Shown piece by piece: positions 1 to 6,572 of a stretch of DNA of 9,713 bases. A program made the position numbers and the translations under genes. The DNA comes from a virus (lineage: Duplodnaviria; Heunggongvirae; Uroviricota; Caudoviricetes). The DNA is taken from IMG/VR virus record IMGVR_UViG_3300029250_000062, positions 1 through 9,713 of that record. The stretch is one strand, 5' to 3'. Position 1 is the first letter of the stretch. Every line of letters begins with the position of its first letter. A model generated the notes under the pieces. The model had not been told where the DNA came from. It searched no databases and worked only from the letters and a program-made list of their open reading frames with translations.

Positions 1-1764
1 GAATATTACTTTGTCATTGCGCTGGCCGGGCAGTCCAACTCGATGTCTTTTGGCGAGGGGCTGCCGCTGCCGGAGACATATGACCGTCCGGACCCGCGTA
101 TTAAACAGCTGGCGCGTCGCAGTACGGTGACGCCGGGTGGTGCCGCCTGTAAATATAACGACATCATTCCGGCAGACCACTGTCTGCATGATGTGCAGGA
201 TATGAGTAACCTGAATCATCCTCATGCAGACCTGAGTAAGGGACAGTACGGTTGTGTGGGGCATGCTCTGCATGTTGCCAAAAAGCTGCTGCCGTTTATG
301 CCTGCGAATGCGGGTATCCTTCTTGTTCCATGTGGCCGTGGCGATCCGGGATTTACTGCGGGGGCCGAGGGGGCGTTTAACGAAGCGTCGGGAGCGACCG
401 CAGGCTCGTCCCTGTGGGGGGCGGATAAACCGCTGTATCATGACCTGGTCAGCAGAACCCGTGCGGCCCTGAAGAAAAATCCGAAGAACGTGCTGTTATC
501 AGTGATCTGGATGCAGGGAGAAAAAGATGTCAGTTCGGGGAGACATGCAGAACACAATGCGCTTTTCCTTGCCATGGTAAATCAGTTCCGTACGGAACTG
601 GCAGATGTGGCAGAGCAGTGTACTGGCGGGACAACGGCCAGCGTCCCGTGGATTTGCGGTGATACCACGTACTACTGGAAGGAAAGGTATGCAGCGCCGT
701 ATGAGGCGGTTTACGGTGGGTATAAAGGCAAAGCTGCGCAGAATATTCACTTTGTGCCGTTGATGACGGATGAGCATGGTGCGAATGTGCCGACAAACGA
801 GCCGTCAGAAGATCCGGACATTATCCCGGCGGGATACTATGGCGCTGCGTCACGCACTGCCAGTAACTGGACGTCAGCCGATCGTAAAACGCACTTCAGT
901 TCATGGGCGCGAAGAGGCCTTGTTTCAGACCGCCTGGCAGGTGCCATTTTGCAGTACGCCGGGCGGACATTATCGTTCCTTACCGGGCAGAGCGCACCGC
1001 AGTCGGGTGGTACAACTCCCGGTGATGATGTCAGTCCGGGGACACCGGATGTTGAGAAACCGCAGGATGGCGGTGTTGCTGGTACTGGTCATGATGAGGC
1101 CGTGAGCAGTACCAGGACGGTGGCTGAATATGATGCGAACAGTGGAAATGGTGTATGGACAGAGCAGCAGTGGGGGGCTGCCGGTGGCAAAGGCACTGTG
1201 ACTGATGACGGTGGACGGAAAGCGCTACGACTGGAAAAACAGCCCGGTAAACTGACGTCCTGGAAAATGTTCCGTACTGTTGCAGTGGAGGAGGCAAAAA
1301 ATCTTCTCAGCAAGGGGGGTGAAATTGCCGTACGGTTCAAAATTCCGGATGGAAGCGAACTGGTGAACGGACAGTTTGTCTTTGGTCTCTACTGGCCGGT
1401 GTCGCAGTGGGCGTCAGGCGCGGCAGCAAACAGTATGCTGGCATCATTCTTCCTTCAGACGGATGCATCAAATCTGAATCTTATGCACCACAAGGGCACG
1501 TCGAATGCACAACTGGGTACATTTGGTGCGTTTGACCATAACTGGCATACGGTTGTTTTCCGCTTTGCGGGAAATAACAGCGAAAGAGTCGTTCCGGTGA
1601 TTGATGGTACAGAGCAGACGGCGTTTGACCTTGTGATGTGGACAAATGATGGCTTTACAGCAGATACGCTGACGCTGACAGATATCACGGGGGCAAAAGC
1701 GACGTATCCTGTACTGCTTGATACGGTCACAGTCAAAGTTAACGAAAGCCGGGCATCATCATAA
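1..1764 (+). CDS. NanS-p-like sialate O-acetylesterase (SGNH/SASA-type hydrolase with C-terminal extension); 5'-truncated by window edge
   Basis: Frame is open from base 1; the listed ATG at 43 is internal. First in-window residues EYYFVIALAGQSNSMSFGEG contain the GQSN catalytic-serine block of SGNH/SASA esterases. Stop TAA at 1762-1764. Position immediately upstream of the lysis cassette matches where nanS-p sits in Stx-type lambdoid prophages (recollection, not searched). Confidence 0.7.
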   Translation, partial: EYYFVIALAGQSNSMSFGEGLPLPETYDRPDPRIKQLARRSTVTPGGAACKYNDIIPADHCLHDVQDMSNLNHPHADLSKGQYGCVGHALHVAKKLLPFMPANAGILLVPCGRGDPGFTAGAEGAFNEASGATAGSSLWGADKPLYHDLVSRTRAALKKNPKNVLLSVIWMQGEKDVSSGRHAEHNALFLAMVNQFRTELADVAEQCTGGTTASVPWICGDTTYYWKERYAAPYEAVYGGYKGKAAQNIHFVPLMTDEHGANVPTNEPSEDPDIIPAGYYGAASRTASNWTSADRKTHFSSWARRGLVSDRLAGAILQYAGRTLSFLTGQSAPQSGGTTPGDDVSPGTPDVEKPQDGGVAGTGHDEAVSSTRTVAEYDANSGNGVWTEQQWGAAGGKGTVTDDGGRKALRLEKQPGKLTSWKMFRTVAVEEAKNLLSKGGEIAVRFKIPDGSELVNGQFVFGLYWPVSQWASGAAANSMLASFFLQTDASNLNLMHHKGTSNAQLGTFGAFDHNWHTVVFRFAGNNSERVVPVIDGTEQTAFDLVMWTNDGFTADTLTLTDITGAKATYPVLLDTVTVKVNESRASS

Positions 1765-1769
1765 CCGGC

Positions 1770-1806
1770 AAAAAAAGCCGCCAGCGGCAGGAACGGAAGC
1801 TGGCGG
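1770..1806 (-). terminator. Putative rho-independent terminator for leftward (minus-strand) transcription
   Basis: 8-bp inverted repeat CCGCCAGC (1778-1785) / GCTGGCGG (1799-1806) preceded on the + strand by A7 (1770-1776), i.e. followed by U7 on the minus strand. The 13-nt loop is long for a terminator. Confidence 0.4.
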
Positions 1807-1903
1807 AGGTAATCCCAATGGAGAATGTAAAGAAAAGATGCTTTCGTATATCGGTTTTTTAAATGAAAACAGTTCTCATTGTCAACCATAACGGTAAGAA
1901 ACT

Positions 1904-2086
1904 ATGACATTTGTTCATCAGGTGATGCTGTACTTCTGTACGGCAGTCTGTGTTATGTATCTTCTTTCGGGTGGGTACAGGGCAGTGCGCGATTTCTGGC
2001 GCAGGCAGATTGATAAAAGGGCCGCAGAGAAAATCAGTGCCAGTCAGTCAGCCGGAAGCAAACCTGAAGATCCGCTCATTCCGTAG
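1904..2086 (+). CDS. Hypothetical small protein (60 aa) with one predicted N-terminal transmembrane helix
   Basis: ATG start, hydrophobic segment VMLYFCTAVCVMYLLSGG, weak SD. No recognisable family. Confidence 0.3.
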   Translation: MTFVHQVMLYFCTAVCVMYLLSGGYRAVRDFWRRQIDKRAAEKISASQSAGSKPEDPLIP

Positions 2087-2123: not shown

Positions 2124-2414
2124 ATGTCAGAAATAAAATCGCTGGTCACTGCTGAGGCAGTGAAGGAAGTCCTGCGCTCTGAAGAAGTCCGGAGCGCACT
2201 GAAACAGCAACTTCGGCAGAACCTTGAGGCGCGTCTTGATGCAGAAGTGGATGCCATTCTGGATGAATTGCTTGGTGCACAGCCGGAACCATCCCCGGAA
2301 CTGCTTCCGGAACCACAGGCGGAAGATGTCACCACGGAAAATGGTGATATTCAGCCGGAGTCACCGGTGACGGATATGACAGACACACAACCCGAACCGG
2401 GCACAATGCTGTAA
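2124..2414 (+). CDS. Hypothetical acidic protein (96 aa) with Pro/Glu-rich C-terminus
   Basis: In-frame ATG at 2124 inside listed ORF 1950..2414, placed just after the stop of the preceding small ORF (2084-2086). Helical charged N-terminal half, then PEPSPELLPEPQAED...TQPEPG low-complexity tail. Followed directly by a strong terminator. Confidence 0.45.
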   Translation: MSEIKSLVTAEAVKEVLRSEEVRSALKQQLRQNLEARLDAEVDAILDELLGAQPEPSPELLPEPQAEDVTTENGDIQPESPVTDMTDTQPEPGTML

Positions 2415-2425
2415 CGGCGGGGCAG

Positions 2426-2460
2426 GGCCATCAGTAAAACACTGATGGCCTTTTTTATTT
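2426..2460 (+). terminator. Rho-independent terminator
   Basis: Perfect 10-bp stem GGCCATCAGT (2426-2435) / ACTGATGGCC (2441-2450), 5-nt loop, then TTTTTTATTT (2451-2460). Confidence 0.6.
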
Positions 2461-2490
2461 CCGGTAGCACAGGTCTGTCGGGGCGGGGAT

Positions 2491-2706
2491 ATGTATCAGA
2501 TGGAAAAAATATCAACGGGCATAGCCTATGGTACTTCTGCGGGCAGTGCGGGTTACTGGTTTCTACAGTGGTTGGATCAGGTTACTCCGTCACAGTGGGC
2601 TGCTATCGGGGTTTTGGGGAGCCTGTGTCTGGGGTTCCTGACATACCTGACGAATCTGTATTTCAAGATTAAAGAAGACCGGCGCAAAGCTGCGCGGGGA
2701 GAGTAA
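2491..2706 (+). CDS. S: Class II holin, phage 21 S / 933W S-like (pinholin-type), dual-start motif
   Basis: 71 aa; N-terminal MYQMEK gives two in-frame Met starts (holin/antiholin pattern). Two hydrophobic segments (Gly/Ala-rich [18 protein letters not shown] and [23 protein letters not shown]) then charged tail [13 protein letters not shown]. Close to my recollection of S21/933W S. Directly upstream of the lysozyme gene. Confidence 0.85.
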
Positions 2707-4199: not shown

Positions 4200-4588
4200 A
4201 AACCGGCCAAGGATAATCCGCTGAAGATTTGCCGGTGGCTAAAGGGGCCAAGCCACCAATTTACGTAATTAGCCACAGAGATACAATATTTTAGTTTACT
4301 TATGTATTTCTGAAGCATGTCTTTGCGCAGTATCGTCGCCGTATTCCCACATGAACAGAGACCGCAGCCCTACCGGGAGACTCCTCTGCGCGAGTGTGCG
4401 GGGATAATCAAAAACGATACACACCGGGGTTTACCGCGTTAACGGAGCGCGGCGTTGTCCCCTCATGGTCGCTGGTCCGGTGCGATGGTGGAAGAAACCG
4501 GACGATGTGTTACCTCGCAAGCTCTGTTATGTCATGTGTCTGATTTGTGATTTAAGTCGGATAATTGTCGTTGCCATTAAACAGAGGA

Positions 4589-4631
4589 TTGATGACCGAC
4601 AGGGTGGCATTGTTAGAATAAGACTTATTCT
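4589..4631 (+). promoter_or_regulatory. Putative sigma70 promoter (extended -10) with overlapping perfect palindromic operator-like site
   Basis: -35-like TTGATG (4589-4594), 19-bp spacer, extended -10 TGtTAGAAT (4611-4619). Palindrome AGAATAAG-a-CTTATTCT (4615-4631, 8-bp perfect arms) overlaps the -10/+1 region and ends 14 bp before the downstream lipoprotein start. Confidence 0.3.
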
Positions 4632-4645
4632 TATCTGTGCCGGGA

Positions 4646-4978
4646 ATGAAAATGAAAAGAAATCTTCCGTTAATTATTTTGTTGTCTTCTCTGGTTATGG
4701 GCTGTACGCAACATAAAACAGATATGCCCCGACAGTTGGTTAAGGCATTACCACAATATCCGGCCTATGCAGCGGCAAATTATATAAAGGGACGGGTTGA
4801 TGTGAAGTTTGATATTGGTGCTGATGGTACTGTCACCCGAATTGAGTTTATCCGTTCAGAGCCGCACCATTTGTTTGATGAGCAGGTTGTAAAGGCGATG
4901 GCAAAATGGCGATTTGAGAAGGACAGGCCGTGTAAAGGCGTGAAGAAAACGTTTATCTTTAGTCCTTCTGCACCCTGA
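4646..4978 (+). CDS. Lipoprotein consisting essentially of a TonB C-terminal-like domain (moron candidate)
   Basis: Signal peptide with lipobox (MKMKRNLPLIILLSSLVMG-C; Thr at +2 suggests outer-membrane sorting). Mature part LPQYPAYAAANYIKGRVDVKFDIGADGTVTRIEFIRSEPHHLFDEQVVKAMAKWRFE parallels the E. coli TonB C-terminal domain (PQYP...G.V.V.F.....DG.V.......P...F...V..AM..WR(Y/F), from memory). Alternative start ATG 4652 has better SD spacing. Confidence 0.7.
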   Translation: MKMKRNLPLIILLSSLVMGCTQHKTDMPRQLVKALPQYPAYAAANYIKGRVDVKFDIGADGTVTRIEFIRSEPHHLFDEQVVKAMAKWRFEKDRPCKGVKKTFIFSPSAP

Positions 4979-5011
4979 TTATTTCATCAGAAATTAATTA
5001 TCACTCTGTTG

Positions 5012-5113
5012 TTATTCTGTACATCCCGGCAGGGTAAGTCTTGTTCCGTCGGATATGAAGATGAAATATTGTTGGAGGACAGTGGGTACCTGCTCCTGTA
5101 ACCGAACGTTCAT
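5012..5113 (-). CDS. Possible 33-aa ORF translationally coupled to the upstream RHH gene (speculative)
   Basis: On the minus strand the ATG overlaps the RHH stop (ATGA). Product MNVRLQEQVPTVLQQYFIFISDGTRLTLPGCTE. Below the length cutoff of the supplied ORF track; no family recognised. Confidence 0.2.
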   Translation of the reverse strand: MNVRLQEQVPTVLQQYFIFISDGTRLTLPGCTE

Positions 5114-5310
5114 TTCTCGTTATTTTTCATGCTGGCCGGGCGCAGATGCGTTGCATCTGTTGCCAGCCTTCTCCTGCAGGCTTCAATAACCCACGCTGAA
5201 AAGTTACCGGACCCTTTATGCTCAAGGGCGATGCTGATCTGTTCAATCATGTGATTGGGGAAACGGATATTGCGGGTTGTGGTTCTGCGGGTCCGGTTTT
5301 TCGATGACAT
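5110..5310 (-). CDS. Arc/Mnt-like ribbon-helix-helix DNA-binding protein (possibly YlcI/YnfO DUF3950-like)
   Basis: 66 aa from ATG at 5310-5308 with SD AAGGAAA 8 nt upstream on the minus strand. RNIRFPNHMIEQISIALEHKGSGNFSAWVIEACRRRL aligns in pattern with Arc repressor FNLRWPREVLDLVRKVAEENGRSVNSEIYQRVMESF (beta-strand then two helices). Opposite strand to the surrounding late genes. Confidence 0.65.
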   Translation of the reverse strand: MSSKNRTRRTTTRNIRFPNHMIEQISIALEHKGSGNFSAWVIEACRRRLATDATHLRPASMKNNEK

Positions 5311-5351
5311 ATTTATTTCCTTTACTGATTGCCATATGACGGGGATTTTAC

Positions 5352-5717
5352 ATGGCTCAGCTTCGTACACTCCAGAGCAGAATCAAAACACTGAATACCC
5401 GACGGGTGAATATTCTGAAGGGGGAGCAGCGTCGTGTCAGTGGCAGTGCACGTGTTTCCCTCAAGCGTCATATCTGGCTGAGGGACGCCGGGCAGTGCTG
5501 TATCTGTGGTCGTGTGGTTGACCTCTGTGACAGTGAACTTGATCACCGAATTGCACTTCAGTTCGGTGGTGGTAATGAGGAGACGAATCTCTGGACGCTC
5601 TGTACCGAATGCCATCGACAAAAGTCTGCTCGTGAAGCGGCGGGTGGTATGCCGGACCCGACGCTGCCGGAGGTGTCCGGAGGTAGTGGCAGAGCGGACG
5701 ACATCATCGGACTGTAA
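5352..5717 (+). CDS. HNH endonuclease (packaging-associated, HK97 gp74-like)
   Basis: CxxC...DH...N...CxxCH arrangement: CCICGRVVD, SELDHRIALQFGGGNEETNLWTLCTECHRQK. Sits immediately upstream of the cos-like region and terS, the usual place in HK97-like packaging modules. Confidence 0.85.
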   Translation: MAQLRTLQSRIKTLNTRRVNILKGEQRRVSGSARVSLKRHIWLRDAGQCCICGRVVDLCDSELDHRIALQFGGGNEETNLWTLCTECHRQKSAREAAGGMPDPTLPEVSGGSGRADDIIGL

Positions 5718-5810
5718 CCCGACCCGGGGGGGGGGATCATCCGGCGTAAAAAACGATCGCTTTGGACACCGCGCCCCCTCTCACGCAGAGAAAAAATTCC
5801 CGTTTCAGGG

Positions 5811-5936
5811 CAGTTAACATGTTAACTGGCTGCCCGGGCATTTTTGCGGTTTTTATCTTTATTATTCAGTTTGTTGTGCGGAAAAAATGTTAACTGGCTT
5901 TTTCAGCAAATGTTAACCAGGCAGCAGTTAACATTT
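5811..5936. repeat. Array of five ATGTTAAC/GTTAACAT motifs (palindrome, direct repeat, inverted pair); putative cosB / terminase small-subunit recognition sites
   Basis: 18-bp perfect palindrome CAGTTAACATGTTAACTG (5811-5828); 12-bp direct repeat ATGTTAACTGGC (5819-5830 and 5887-5898); inverted pair AAATGTTAAC (5908-5917) / GTTAACATTT (5927-5936) with 9-bp spacer. All in non-coding DNA between HNH and terS, ending about 70 bp before the terS start. Confidence 0.45.
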
Positions 5937-6008
5937 GCGGCATGAGACGCCGGGAAAAATGGGCTGAACCATACCCGGCTGAGTGCGTTCTGGACCCGGG
6001 AGGAGGCT

Positions 6009-6572
6009 GTGCTGACAACGCAAAAACGAAAATTTGCGCTGGCGCTCATGTCCGGGAAAAACAAAACAGCGTCAGCCATTGCCGCCGGTTATTCGGCGAA
6101 GACCGCCAGGGTTAAAGGCTCGCAGCTGGCAAAAGATCCGGAGGTGCTTGCGTTTATAGCCCGTAAACAATGCGAGACGGTGGAGGTGGATGAGGTTCCT
6201 GTTTACCGGCAGAAAAAATCAGAGCAGGAGGATAAACCCCGTCGCCGTGAGGCGGCTGCAATACCACAGCCGGACGAAAACAATCCGGAGATGCCACCGT
6301 CCGCGGTGATGTCTCCTGGTATTGAATATATGGAGGATGGTCTTCCCGATCCGGTGAAAGCCATGGGGCGGATCCTGGTGGAAAACCTCTGCATTGATCC
6401 GAAACTGGCACTGGATGCGGCCTGGCGTCTGGCGCAGTTCACGCACCATAAAAAAGGGGATACCGGGAAAAAATCGGCAAAAGGTGATGCCGCGAAAAAA
6501 GCGGCTAACCGTTTTGCGGTGCCACCGCCACCCAGACTGGTGGTGAATAACGATAATGAGGGCAACGGATGA
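6009..6572 (+). CDS. terS: Terminase small subunit (HTH-containing)
   Basis: GTG start at 6009 with SD GGGAGG/AGGAGG (5998-6006). N-terminal LTTQKRKFALALMSGKNKTASAIAAGYSAKTARVKGSQL matches the usual terS signature (K.FA..Y....N.T.AAI.AGYS.KTA...GS.L). Stop TGA overlaps the terL ATG (ATGA at 6569-6572). Confidence 0.85.
   Translation: MLTTQKRKFALALMSGKNKTASAIAAGYSAKTARVKGSQLAKDPEVLAFIARKQCETVEVDEVPVYRQKKSEQEDKPRRREAAAIPQPDENNPEMPPSAVMSPGIEYMEDGLPDPVKAMGRILVENLCIDPKLALDAAWRLAQFTHHKKGDTGKKSAKGDAAKKAANRFAVPPPPRLVVNNDNEGNG

What the first reader, a model, noticed from the sequence alone, without database searches (positions are those of the whole stretch)
1765..1903. Intergenic element after the esterase gene: leftward terminator, consensus -35 on the minus strand, and a 14-codon ORF with a near-perfect SD
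The hairpin at 1778-1806 has its U-tract on the minus strand, so it terminates leftward transcription although all neighbouring genes are rightward. About 75 bp to the right, the minus strand carries a perfect TTGACA (1885-1880) with weak -10 candidates (TTTAAA/TAAAAA), which would give a roughly 80-nt antisense transcript. On the + strand the 3' arm of the same hairpin overlaps a strong SD (GGAGGT 1805-1810), 7 nt before ATG 1818, which opens a 14-codon ORF (MENVKKRCFRISVF) ending in the T-run. This looks like a small regulatory unit (sRNA or leader peptide) rather than spacer.
Basis: seen in the sequence. Interest (0 to 1): 0.4.

Follow-up and report, generated by a model that had tools for sequence, protein, structure and literature searches.

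The report
Unannotated Esr41-like prophage small RNA gene
The spacer after the phage esterase gene most likely holds a complete leftward gene for an 80-nucleotide regulatory RNA, an unannotated relative of the pathogenic-E. coli small RNA Esr41, and the "14-codon ORF with a perfect ribosome-binding site" is its mirror image on the opposite strand, not a coding gene.

Summary
The sRNA reading is supported. The leader-peptide reading is not.

- **Proposed gene.** Window 1885→1770 on the minus strand has a consensus -35 (TTGACA), an 18-bp spacer, a -10 of TAAAAA, an ~80-nt RNA (1849→1770), an 8-bp GC-rich terminator and U7.
- **Distribution.** The module occurs in 975 of 5,426 complete E. coli genomes and in 306 phage records, including the Stx phages of O157:H7 Sakai. 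It always lies between the sialate esterase gene and DUF1378/holin, antisense to the late operon. No listed record annotates it as an RNA.
- **Closest relative.** This is Esr41, an Hfq-dependent sRNA of island SpLE1. The two loci align from the -35 to the U-tract, with 24 of 27 bases identical across seed and terminator arm (z = 7.5). Covariance models match in both directions but below Rfam's threshold.
- **Same slot.** The validated sRNAs PasA, PasC and EcOnc52 occupy this slot with the same architecture but unrelated 5' sequence.
- **The ORF.** It shrinks to MEKK* in the common O157 variant, and only "ME" is conserved.
- **Limits.** Expression, Hfq binding and targets are inferred. cirA is only a candidate target.

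This is a new member of a known kind, of moderate interest.

The parts
1880..1885 (-). -35 hexamer TTGACA of the sRNA promoter
   Evidence: Read directly. It is TTGACA in types A, B and D and TTGACT in type C. It aligns with the Esr41 -35, together with spacer bases AACTnTTTT.
1856..1861 (-). Probable -10 hexamer TAAAAA, 18-bp spacer (weak, 4 of 6, lacks T at -7)
   Evidence: It aligns with TATATA of the Esr41 promoter at the same 18-bp spacing. The stretch CATTTAAAAA is kept in variants down to 72% overall identity. The consensus scan does not call it. The assignment is inferred.
1770..1849 (-). Predicted ~80-nt sRNA (5' end inferred to within about 2 nt, 3' end at the end of U7)
   Evidence: Family covariance model R1 matches 1849..1770 (105.4 bits; the window sequence is part of the model). 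The independent Sakai Sp5 copy scores 99.3 bits. The Rfam Esr41 model matches 1844..1770 end to end at 20.5 bits, E = 0.19. The 5' end is placed by alignment to the Esr41 5' end.
1818..1825 (-). Conserved single-stranded core UUCUCCAU, the putative seed and an anti-Shine-Dalgarno sequence
   Evidence: UCUCCAU is identical in types A, B and C and in Esr41; type D has UUUCCAU. In Esr41 this stretch gives 13 consecutive pairs with the cirA ribosome-binding site (by hand from the sequences; -25.2 kcal/mol, 0 of 300 shuffles). On the + strand it reads ATGGAGAA, which is the 'ATG' of the 14-codon ORF.
1807..1816 (-). Weak second stem-loop GGG-AUUA-CCU, the counterpart of Esr41 GGGG-UAUU-CCCU
   Evidence: Alignment and folding. 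It changes register in type B and is absent in type C, so it is not supported as a conserved structure.
1778..1806 (-). Terminator hairpin, 8 bp (CCGCCAGC/GCUGGCGG) with a 13-nt loop
   Evidence: -14.6 kcal/mol, 0 of 200 shuffles. Six pairs are invariant in 17 distinct sequences, so there is no covariation for or against. Esr41 has G-U where the window has A-U. The core GCCAGC/GCUGGC is shared with PasA, PasC and EcOnc52.
1770..1776 (-). U7 tail: termination signal and the expected Hfq-binding 3' end
   Evidence: A7 on the + strand. There are 6-9 U in nearly all variants. The tail ends 6 nt from the esterase stop codon (1762-1764).
1818..1862 (+). 14-codon ORF MENVKKRCFRISVF with GGAGGT at 1805-1810; judged a mirror image of the sRNA, not a gene
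   Evidence: The ORF is not conserved: MEKK* in 45 of 144 loci, unrelated 23-25-aa peptides in types C and D, and frame shifts at the homopolymer run.
1..1764 (+). Upstream flank: 3' part of the sialate O-acetylesterase gene (SASA + DUF6645), cut by the left end of the window
   Evidence: Pfam SASA 7.4e-10 and DUF6645 6.4e-33. The frame is open from base 1.
1904..2086 (+). Downstream flank: DUF1378 gene, followed by DUF826 (2124-2414) and the holin gene
   Evidence: Pfam DUF1378 1.8e-37 and DUF826 7e-29. RefSeq annotation of related loci agrees.

Best explanation
Window 1885→1770 on the minus strand is a self-contained gene for an ~80-nt small regulatory RNA carried by a lambdoid prophage. It is transcribed convergently with the late operon.

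A sigma-70 promoter (consensus -35, 18-bp spacer, weak A-rich -10) starts transcription near 1849. An intrinsic terminator (8-bp GC stem plus U7) stops it at about 1770, 6 nt before the esterase stop codon.

The RNA is a diverged paralogue of Esr41. It keeps Esr41's promoter layout, its U-rich single-stranded core UUCUCCAU, the CCUCC that flanks the terminator, and the terminator with its poly-U module (the part that binds Hfq in sRNAs of this class). It has a different 5' third.

The most likely mechanism is that of Esr41. The RNA would be made in the lysogen, stabilised by Hfq, and would pair in trans through its anti-Shine-Dalgarno core with ribosome-binding regions of host mRNAs to block translation. 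The RBS of cirA, the TonB-dependent catecholate-siderophore receptor that colicins Ia/Ib use to enter the cell, is one candidate target.

- **Shown here:** the anatomy, its conservation, the homology to Esr41, the shared slot with PasA/PasC/EcOnc52, and the non-conservation of the + strand ORF.
- **Inferred:** transcription, the 5' end, Hfq dependence, and the targets.
For: 1. **Complete gene anatomy in the right geometry**.
2. **Conserved as a unit.** The element is in 975 of 5,426 E. coli genomes and 306 phage records. There are 52 distinct variants in 144 loci. The -35, the -10 region, CGAAAG, UCUCCAU and the terminator with U7 are kept, while the segments between them vary and recombine.
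3. **Module boundary.** Homology with Stx1/Stx2 phages starts exactly at the U-tract (window 1770) and runs rightward, while the esterase 3' end is too diverged for megablast.
4. **Homology to Esr41.**
   - The Rfam Esr41 model matches end to end: 20.5 bits for the window and 30.9 bits, E = 0.028, for the O157 variant.
   - The family model R1 finds the real Esr41 at 22.2 bits, E about 0.001.
   - The local alignment has z = 7.5, 0 of 1,000 dinucleotide shuffles reach it, and 24 of 27 bases are identical.
   - The alignment also covers the promoter, with the same -35, the same 18-bp spacer and shared spacer bases.
5. **Esr41 is a verified sRNA.** It binds Hfq and represses cirA, chuA and bfr by direct pairing (PMC5286369).
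6. **Same slot as verified sRNAs.** PasA and PasC are Northern-verified, Hfq-dependent sRNAs in this slot and orientation (PMC8550237 Table S6; bioRxiv 10.64898/2026.05.13.724894). EcOnc52, an Hfq-crosslinking peak with a predicted terminator, is there too. All share TTGACA, a 70-85-nt RNA and GCCAGC/GCUGGC plus U7.
7. **Independent hint.** The Pas survey noted Rfam Esr41 hits near PasD, which lies upstream of the esterase.
8. **Candidate target.** Family members keep above-chance pairing with the cirA RBS: -18.4 to -22.8 kcal/mol, reached by 0-3% of shuffles. PasA and PasC show none.
Against: - No expression data were available for any member of this family.
- The -10 is weak and the consensus promoter scan does not call it.
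- Both covariance-model matches to Esr41 are far below Rfam's gathering score (102 bits). Esr41's 5' stem-loop is absent.
- The terminator stem never varies, so there is no covariation support.
- Structure outside the terminator is not conserved, and the full RNA folds only marginally better than shuffles (z = -1.7).
- The Sakai copies in Sp5 and Sp15 are not among the 63 Hfq-bound sRNA candidates of Tree et al. 2014. That screen excluded peaks within 100 nt of a coding region, and the spacer is only 134 nt, so this is weak evidence.
- Pairing with cirA is weaker than for Esr41, and pairing with bfr is no better than shuffles even for Esr41 in my simple test.
- The variant set was collected with a pattern that required three of the conserved blocks. 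This inflates their apparent conservation. The BLAST-collected variants show the same blocks.
Confidence: 0.72

Rival explanations
1. Cis-acting antisense or convergent-transcription element. The leftward transcript, or the act of making it, regulates the phage's own late operon. It could do this by pairing with the fully complementary late mRNA between the esterase and DUF1378/holin (affecting processing or stability), or by transcriptional interference that damps read-through into the lysis genes in lysogens.
For: - The RNA is perfectly complementary to the late transcript by position.
- Its 3' end abuts the esterase stop codon.
- It stays linked to the DUF1378-DUF826-holin module across phages.
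- PasA, in the same slot, gave RIL-seq chimeras with the 3' ends of the esterase mRNAs E2348C_0688 and E2348C_1246.
Against: - The RNA (1849-1770) does not overlap the ribosome-binding site or start of DUF1378 (1904), nor the esterase coding region.
- The closest relative, Esr41, sits in a non-lambdoid island and acts in trans.
- No other site of 9 nt or more on the window's + strand is complementary to the seed region.
- The late operon is read by Q-modified, termination-resistant polymerase at high rate during induction (general lambdoid biology; my own knowledge).
- This reading is compatible with the best explanation as a second function.
Confidence: 0.15
2. Terminator or insulator only. 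The hairpin plus U7 stops stray leftward transcription from entering the esterase and toxin region. The TTGACA and the remaining sequence would be conserved by linkage in recently spread prophages, with no discrete stable RNA made.
For: - The terminator is the only statistically exceptional structure.
- The -10 is weak.
- Many copies are near-identical and recently spread.
Against: - Conservation is block-wise over 72-100% identity. The -35, the spacing, the -10 region and UCUCCAU are kept while the intervening sequence diverges and recombines.
- Promoter-to-terminator homology with an expressed sRNA in a different island is not expected for a bare terminator.
- Three different sequence families in this slot all keep a TTGACA 100-115 nt upstream of the terminator.
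Confidence: 0.09
3. A translated 14-codon leader peptide or small protein on the + strand (MENVKKRCFRISVF), driven by the strong GGAGGT Shine-Dalgarno sequence, which couples translation to expression of downstream late genes.
For: In the window variant the SD (GGAGGT), the 7-nt spacing and the ATG are close to ideal, and the ORF lies on the strand of the late mRNA.
Against: - Across 144 loci the ORF is MEKK* in 45, unrelated 23-25-aa sequences in types C and D, and frame-shifted at its C-terminus by homopolymer indels.
- The SD degrades to GGTGGT or GTGTGAG in other types.
- Only ATG-GAG is conserved, and that is the complement of the sRNA core.
- The SD is sequestered in the 3' arm of the 8-bp hairpin on the + strand RNA.
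- The ORF ends 41 nt before the DUF1378 start, so coupling is unlikely.
Confidence: 0.03

Closest known systems
Esr41 (Rfam RF02676; EcOnc14), the Hfq-dependent sRNA of island SpLE1/OI-43/48 in EHEC O157:H7
   Same: - The promoter layout is the same: TTGACA, an 18-bp spacer with shared bases, and an A/T-only -10.
- The RNA length is similar: about 72-74 nt against about 80 nt.
- The core UUCUCCAU, a following G-rich/AUU/CCUCC segment, the terminator CGCC(A/G)GC...GCUGGCG and U7 are shared.
- 24 of 27 bases are identical in that part.
- Covariance-model matches work in both directions.
   Different: - Esr41's 5' stem-loop (GAUGC/GCAUC) is replaced by an unrelated, unstructured 5' third (AUACGAAAGCAUCUUUUCUUUAC).
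- Scores are far below Rfam's gathering threshold.
- The genomic home is the late region of lambdoid and Stx prophages, antisense between the esterase and DUF1378, not SpLE1 downstream of iha.
- The extended Esr41-cirA pairing (13 bp) is reduced to a 7-bp core plus 3 bp in the window variant.
- No experimental data exist for this family.
PasA / PasC / EcOnc51-52, prophage sRNAs of EPEC and EHEC between the sialate esterase and the holin gene
   Same: - Identical slot and antisense orientation.
- The same architecture: TTGACA promoter, 79-85-nt RNA, terminator core GCCAGC/GCUGGC plus U7 abutting the esterase stop codon.
- These are phage-borne, often multi-copy, and associated with Stx phages.
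   Different: - No significant sequence similarity outside the terminator core: z about 1.8-1.9 in local alignment, and R1 scores of 5.7 bits for PasA and 11.3 bits for PasC.
- The seed proposed for PasA (GCCAGCACCU) overlaps the terminator arm.
- Pas loci are followed directly by the holin gene, whereas this family is followed by DUF1378-DUF826 and then the holin gene.
- A BLAST search with PasA finds 28 phage records, whereas this element is in 306.
AsxR / AgvB anti-sRNAs and STnc100/EcOnc27, the convergent sRNA pair downstream of the moron at PR'
   Same: These are also short Hfq-binding sRNAs encoded antisense or convergent in the late-region moron area of the same Stx prophages.
   Different: - They lie one intergenic region further upstream, between stx and the esterase.
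- Their sequences are unrelated: there is no Rfam match in the window even at E = 10.
- They act by sponging core sRNAs.

Membership tests
Esr41 (Rfam RF02676) | Scores at or above the Rfam gathering threshold (102 bits) against the curated covariance model | tested here: not met
   The window scores 20.5 bits, E = 0.19. The O157 variant scores 30.9 bits. The real Esr41 scores 108.6 bits.
Esr41 (Rfam RF02676) | Significant sequence homology of the seed, second stem and terminator part, and of the promoter | tested here: met
   24 of 27 bases identical, z = 7.5, 0 of 1,000 shuffles. R1 finds Esr41 at 22.2 bits, E about 0.001. The promoter aligns at the same spacing.
Esr41 (Rfam RF02676) | 5' stem-loop GAUGCU-CUA-GGCAUC | tested here: not met
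   The window's 5' third is unrelated and is predicted to be unpaired.
Esr41 (Rfam RF02676) | Location in SpLE1/OI-43/48 downstream of iha | tested here: not met
   The window is the late region of a lambdoid prophage, in the order esterase, element, DUF1378, DUF826, holin.
Esr41 (Rfam RF02676) | Expressed as an ~70-nt Hfq-binding RNA that represses cirA, chuA and bfr by pairing | not testable with these tools
   Only in-silico pairing was possible: the window scores -18.4 kcal/mol with the cirA RBS (2% of shuffles) against -25.2 for Esr41.
PasA/PasC (Pas sRNAs) | Encoded between the sialate esterase (PF03629) and the holin/lysozyme genes, antisense to them | tested here: met
   In the window, DUF1378 and DUF826 lie between the element and the holin gene.
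PasA/PasC (Pas sRNAs) | Sequence similarity to PasA or PasC detectable by BLAST or a covariance model (the criterion used by Zhu et al.) | tested here: not met
   Local alignment z = 1.8-1.9. R1 scores of 5.7 and 11.3 bits, E above 0.4. Only the terminator core GCCAGC/GCUGGC is shared.
Hfq-dependent trans-acting sRNA (general class) | Own promoter, Rho-independent terminator with a 3' U-tail of at least 6, and a single-stranded seed upstream | tested here: met
   The -35, 18-bp spacer and weak -10, the 8-bp stem plus U7, and the conserved unpaired UUCUCCAU are all present. Promoter activity itself is inferred.
Hfq-dependent trans-acting sRNA (general class) | Binds Hfq, or is unstable without it | not testable with these tools
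   The Sakai copies are not in Tree 2014 Table S2, but that screen excluded peaks less than 100 nt from a coding region.
Leader peptide / small ORF | ORF, start codon and SD conserved among homologous loci, with a conserved peptide | tested here: not met
   MEKK* in 45 of 144 loci, unrelated peptides in types C and D, and only 'ME' conserved.
Intrinsic (Rho-independent) terminator, minus strand | GC-rich hairpin immediately followed by a U-run on the transcribed strand | tested here: met
   8-bp stem at -14.6 kcal/mol, then C and U7. The + strand has no U-run after the hairpin.

The most novel reading that the evidence does not exclude
The esterase-lysis junction of lambdoid prophages may be a dedicated 'sRNA cassette' site. 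A constant chassis (TTGACA promoter, GCCAGC/GCUGGC terminator, U7 Hfq handle) would carry interchangeable 5' seed modules that are swapped by recombination. Three unrelated families (Esr41-like, PasA and PasC/EcOnc52-like) and B/C/B mosaics are seen here. Each incoming prophage would then reprogram a different set of host mRNAs.

On this reading, the Esr41-like family is a phage-borne regulator of TonB-dependent receptors such as CirA. It would change the iron uptake, colicin Ia/Ib sensitivity and possibly phage-receptor display of about one fifth of sequenced E. coli, including the Stx-phage lysogens.
Probability: 0.25. Interest if true: 0.65.

Novelty: new member of a known kind. Interest (0 to 1): 0.42.

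Why it matters
If the RNA is expressed, an Esr41-type regulator is not confined to the SpLE1 island of O157. It would be carried, unannotated, by lambdoid prophages in about 18% of complete E. coli genomes and by most sequenced Stx1 and Stx2 phages.

Esr41 controls iron uptake and storage, colicin sensitivity, motility and LEE expression. Extra diverged copies on Stx phages could add or alter such control and could confound esr41 deletion phenotypes.

The result also fills a gap in the recent Pas survey, where prophages with PasD 'alone' may carry this family in the PasA/PasC slot.

It gives a concrete example of how an anti-Shine-Dalgarno sRNA seed looks like a perfect SD-plus-ATG mini-ORF on the opposite strand, which is a trap for small-ORF prediction.

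Tried and rejected
- **Rfam at gathering thresholds.** No match anywhere in the window. The Pas RNAs do not appear to be in Rfam 15: no family matched the PasA or PasC positions in the scan of their loci.
- **Covariation in the terminator or elsewhere.** None. The stem is invariant and the second stem-loop is not conserved.
- **Fur box over the promoter.** The window matches 13 of 19 positions (4% of shuffles), but types C and D match only 10 of 19, so Fur control is not supported.
- **Self-targets in the phage.** No complement of 9 nt or more to the sRNA's 5' 45 nt elsewhere on the window's + strand.
- **bfr as a shared target.** Pairing is no better than shuffles even for Esr41 in my short-window test, so the test is uninformative. 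chuA was not tested because its sequence was not fetched.
- **Taxonomic range.** Only the Shigella flexneri Esr41 was real.
- **IMG/VR loci found through the esterase C-terminus.** Almost all were near-identical to the window and gave little diversity. The DNA-pattern scan gave diversity but is biased towards the blocks it required.
- **Published expression evidence.**
  - Tree 2014 Table S2 has no entry at the Sp5 or Sp15 slot, but its filter excludes short spacers.
  - The EDL933 ncRNA tables of Neuhaus 2017 have nothing at coordinates I recalled from memory, which is a weak test.
  - E2348/69, which has RIL-seq data, has no copy at PP4, which lacks the esterase.
- **HnrS (EcOnc10-12) elsewhere in the window.** Absent.
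- **PasA-2 of Zhu et al.** I considered whether the element is PasA-2. I rejected this because PasA-2 shares PasA's 3' end and this element does not.
- **Type I toxin-antitoxin.** Rejected because the peptide is neither hydrophobic nor conserved.
Full report
**1. The observation**

The window is the late region of a lambdoid prophage.
- A sialate O-acetylesterase gene (SASA + DUF6645) runs off the left end of the window and stops at 1762-1764.
- It is followed by DUF1378 (1904-2086), DUF826 (2124-2414), then the holin, lysozyme, Rz and terminase genes.

- The hairpin is at 1778-1806: CCGCCAGC, a 13-nt loop, then GCTGGCGG.
- It is preceded on the + strand by A7 (1770-1776). On the minus strand it is therefore followed by C and U7.
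- TTGACA lies on the minus strand at 1885-1880.
- GGAGGT is at 1805-1810, then 7 nt, then ATG at 1818, opening a 14-codon ORF that ends at 1862.
- The hairpin alone folds at -14.6 kcal/mol, which 0 of 200 shuffles reach.
- There is no T-run after the hairpin on the + strand, so it terminates only leftward transcription.
- The consensus promoter scan does not call the promoter because every -10 candidate lacks T at the last position.
- The 139-nt region as a whole is not unusually structured on either strand.

**2. Not a chance arrangement**

- The 139 nt recur at 72-100% identity in 975 of 5,426 complete E. coli genomes. There are 2,193 places, a median of 2 per positive genome and up to 7.
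- They also recur in 306 phage records, including VT2-Sakai, VT1-Sakai and many Stx1a, Stx2a and Stx2c phages.
- In every locus whose annotation was fetched, the order is esterase, then the element antisense, then DUF1378, DUF826 and the holin gene.
- No listed record annotates an RNA here. The sampled E. coli genome rows show no feature at all under the match, and three phage records place a 'hypothetical protein' over it.
- A pattern scan of IMG/VR plus the fetched loci gave 144 loci and 52 distinct 175-nt variants. They fall into types A (the window), B (O157 Sp5/Sp15), C (Stx2a phage of strain 493/89), D and E, plus mosaics such as B/C/B.
- The conserved blocks are TTGACA, the spacer and CATTTAAAAA, CGAAAG, UCUCCAU, and CCGCCAG...CUGGCGG plus U6-9. 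The sequence between them varies.
- The pattern required three of these blocks, which biases that set. The same blocks appear in the variants collected by BLAST down to 72% identity.
- Homology between the window and the Stx phages begins exactly at the U-tract (window 1770) and runs rightward. The adjacent esterase 3' end is too diverged for megablast.
- Type A elements are found next to three different esterase 3' ends. The element therefore behaves as a module with a recombination boundary at its 3' end.

**3. What it is related to**

*Esr41.*
- An E-value scan of Rfam gave one coherent hit. The Esr41 model (RF02676) matched end to end on the minus strand at 1844-1770, with 20.5 bits and E = 0.19.
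- The O157 type B copy scores 30.9 bits (E = 0.028). The real Esr41 in Sakai SpLE1 scores 108.6 bits.
- Aligning the Esr41 locus with four family types shows homology from the promoter through to the end. The shared parts are TTGACAA, AACTnTTTT in an 18-bp spacer, an A/T-only -10, UUCUCCAU, GGG-AUU-CCUCC, CGCC(A/G)GC...GCUGGCG and U7.
- A local alignment scores z = 7.5. None of 1,000 dinucleotide shuffles reach it, and 24 of 27 bases are identical.
- A covariance model built from 17 distinct family RNAs (R1) finds Esr41 at 22.2 bits, E about 0.001, over model positions 22-80.
- Esr41's 5' stem-loop is not present. The first ~22 nt of the window RNA are unrelated.

*The Pas sRNAs and EcOnc52.*
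- The slot itself is known to hold sRNA genes. PasA (85 nt) and PasC (79 nt) of EPEC E2348/69 are Northern-verified, Hfq-dependent sRNAs with RIL-seq targets. They lie on the minus strand between the esterase and the next gene, in the orientation '> < >' (PMC8550237 Table S6).
- Zhu, Shabalina and Storz describe esterase-pasA/pasC-holin-lysozyme as the canonical arrangement.
- I fetched those loci and the Sakai Sp4 locus of EcOnc52.
- All have TTGACA, an A-rich -10, a 70-85-nt body, and the terminator GCCAGC...GCUGGC plus U7 abutting the esterase stop codon.
- Their bodies are not significantly similar to the window element: z is 1.8-1.9, and R1 gives 5.7 bits for PasA and 11.3 bits for PasC.
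- The window element is therefore a third sequence family in the PasA/PasC slot, and its nearest sequence relative is Esr41.
- Zhu et al. remark that Rfam Esr41 hits are frequent near PasD, which lies upstream of the esterase. That fits this element, but they did not follow it up.

**4. The 14-codon ORF**

- Anchoring on the homologous ATG, the ORF is 14-15 codons in most type A copies, with a few extended to 24-25.
- It is MEKK* in type B (45 of 144 loci), where the SD is GGTGGT.
- Types C and D give unrelated 23-25-aa peptides.
- Indels in the T/A run shift the C-terminus. Only Met-Glu is conserved.
- Type B and type C copies dominate the databases: 647 of 982 E. coli records and 299 of 306 phage records fall in the 60-90% identity bands.
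- ATGGAG is the complement of the conserved CUCCAU, and GGAGG is the complement of the CCUCC that flanks the terminator. The 'near-perfect SD plus ATG' is thus the mirror image of an anti-Shine-Dalgarno sRNA.
- On the + strand RNA the SD would also be buried in the hairpin's 3' arm.

**5. Likely mechanism**

*Shown here:* the gene anatomy and its conservation.

*Inferred by alignment to Esr41:*
- The -10 is TAAAAA (1861-1856), the counterpart of Esr41's TATATA at the same spacing.
- The 5' end is at about 1849-1851.
- The RNA is about 80 nt and ends in U7.

*Inferred by homology and class features:* Hfq binds the terminator and poly-U, and the unpaired UUCUCCAU acts as the seed on ribosome-binding regions.

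*A partial test with cirA and bfr.*
- I fetched cirA and bfr from K-12.
- Esr41's stretch UCUCCAUGGGGUA forms 13 consecutive pairs with UACCUCAUGGAGA in the cirA RBS. I traced these by hand from the sequences, and one search gives -25.2 kcal/mol, reached by 0 of 300 shuffles. This agrees with the published direct repression.
- The family members keep the 7-nt core and score -18.0 to -22.8 kcal/mol, reached by 0-3% of shuffles. The window scores -18.4, reached by 2%.
- PasA and PasC show nothing.
- cirA is thus a candidate target, not a demonstrated one. The bfr test was uninformative.
- A cis-antisense role on the late transcript cannot be excluded and may coexist. However, the RNA overlaps neither flanking coding region nor an RBS.

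**6. What argues against, and what I could not do**

- There are no expression data for this family.
- The Sakai copies are absent from Tree et al.'s list of 63 Hfq-bound candidates. That screen required peaks to lie more than 100 nt from coding regions or antisense to them, and the spacer is 134 nt.
- A look-up in the EDL933 ncRNA tables found nothing, but it relied on coordinates I recalled from memory.
- There is no covariation, because the stem is invariant.
- Fur-box, self-target and cross-species scans were negative or uninformative.

**7. Verdict**

- The sRNA interpretation is supported by homology and synteny. My confidence that this is an expressed sRNA gene is about 0.7, and lower for the specific targets.
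- The leader-peptide interpretation is rejected.
- This is a new, unannotated member of a known kind, a prophage Hfq-type sRNA and paralogue of Esr41. It is not a new kind of element.
- Interest is moderate. The element is widespread, sits in Stx phages, and is testable at once with public Sakai datasets.

Noticed in passing
window 2424-2462 (+): A strong + strand terminator-like hairpin (12-bp stem, 5-nt loop, then TTTTATTTCC) lies between DUF826 and the holin start. Similarly placed + strand hairpin-plus-T-run sequences sit just upstream of the holin gene or at the holin-proximal end of the slot in E2348/69 PP2 and PP5 and Sakai Sp9 (R1 side-hits and blast). It may insulate the lysis genes from moron promoters unless the polymerase is Q-modified.
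   Followed up: partly
window 4637-4978 (+): A 113-aa ORF with a lipoprotein-like N-terminus (MKMKRNLPLIILLSSLVMGC...) and a TonB C-terminal domain (Pfam TonB_C, 1.4e-14) lies between Rz and the terminase genes. It is a moron candidate. This is curious next to an sRNA whose relative targets TonB-dependent receptors.
   Followed up: partly
window 4324-4502 vs L164 (Sakai Sp9) 5959-6137: The region after Rz is 93% identical to Sp9, but the homology stops just before the place where Sp9 carries HnrS (EcOnc12, seed CCCAAUCAGUACAUU complementary to the end of mazF). The window has no HnrS copy.
   Followed up: yes
window 4806-4779 (-): A near-consensus sigma-70 promoter match on the minus strand (TTCACA, 16 bp, TATAAT; 11 of 12) lies inside the TonB_C ORF. 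The scan found no terminator downstream of it.
   Followed up: no
L002 (E2348/69 PP2) 2362-2660 (-); L285 (Sakai Sp4) 2510-2625 (-): PP2 carries two tandem sRNA units after the esterase. The distal one is PasA. The proximal one, next to the esterase stop codon, is the homologue of EcOnc52 of Sakai Sp4 and resembles PasC. The 236-nt 'minor' PasA form probably reads through both.
   Followed up: partly
OL657226.1 (phage 434) 45456-45540: PasA is 100% identical in the classical lambdoid phage 434, where the record annotates the spot only as 'terminator' and as a region of non-homology.
   Followed up: no
L136 (variant v49) and others: Mosaic elements occur, for example a type B 5' part, a type C seed and second-stem part, and a type B terminator loop. 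They indicate recombination inside the ~80-nt RNA gene.
   Followed up: partly
L004 4805-5014 (-), L005 4786-4991 (-) and 4732-4784 (+): Upstream of the esterase, the O157 Stx phages carry STnc100/EcOnc27, and the Stx2a phage also carries AsxR (Rfam scores 177-208 and 88 bits). The esterase gene is therefore flanked by sRNA genes on both sides. That upstream region lies outside the window.
   Followed up: partly
L008 (Sakai Sp5) 4504-5813: In Sakai Sp5 the esterase gene is split by IS629, but the Esr41-like element downstream (L008 6087-6168) is intact.
   Followed up: no
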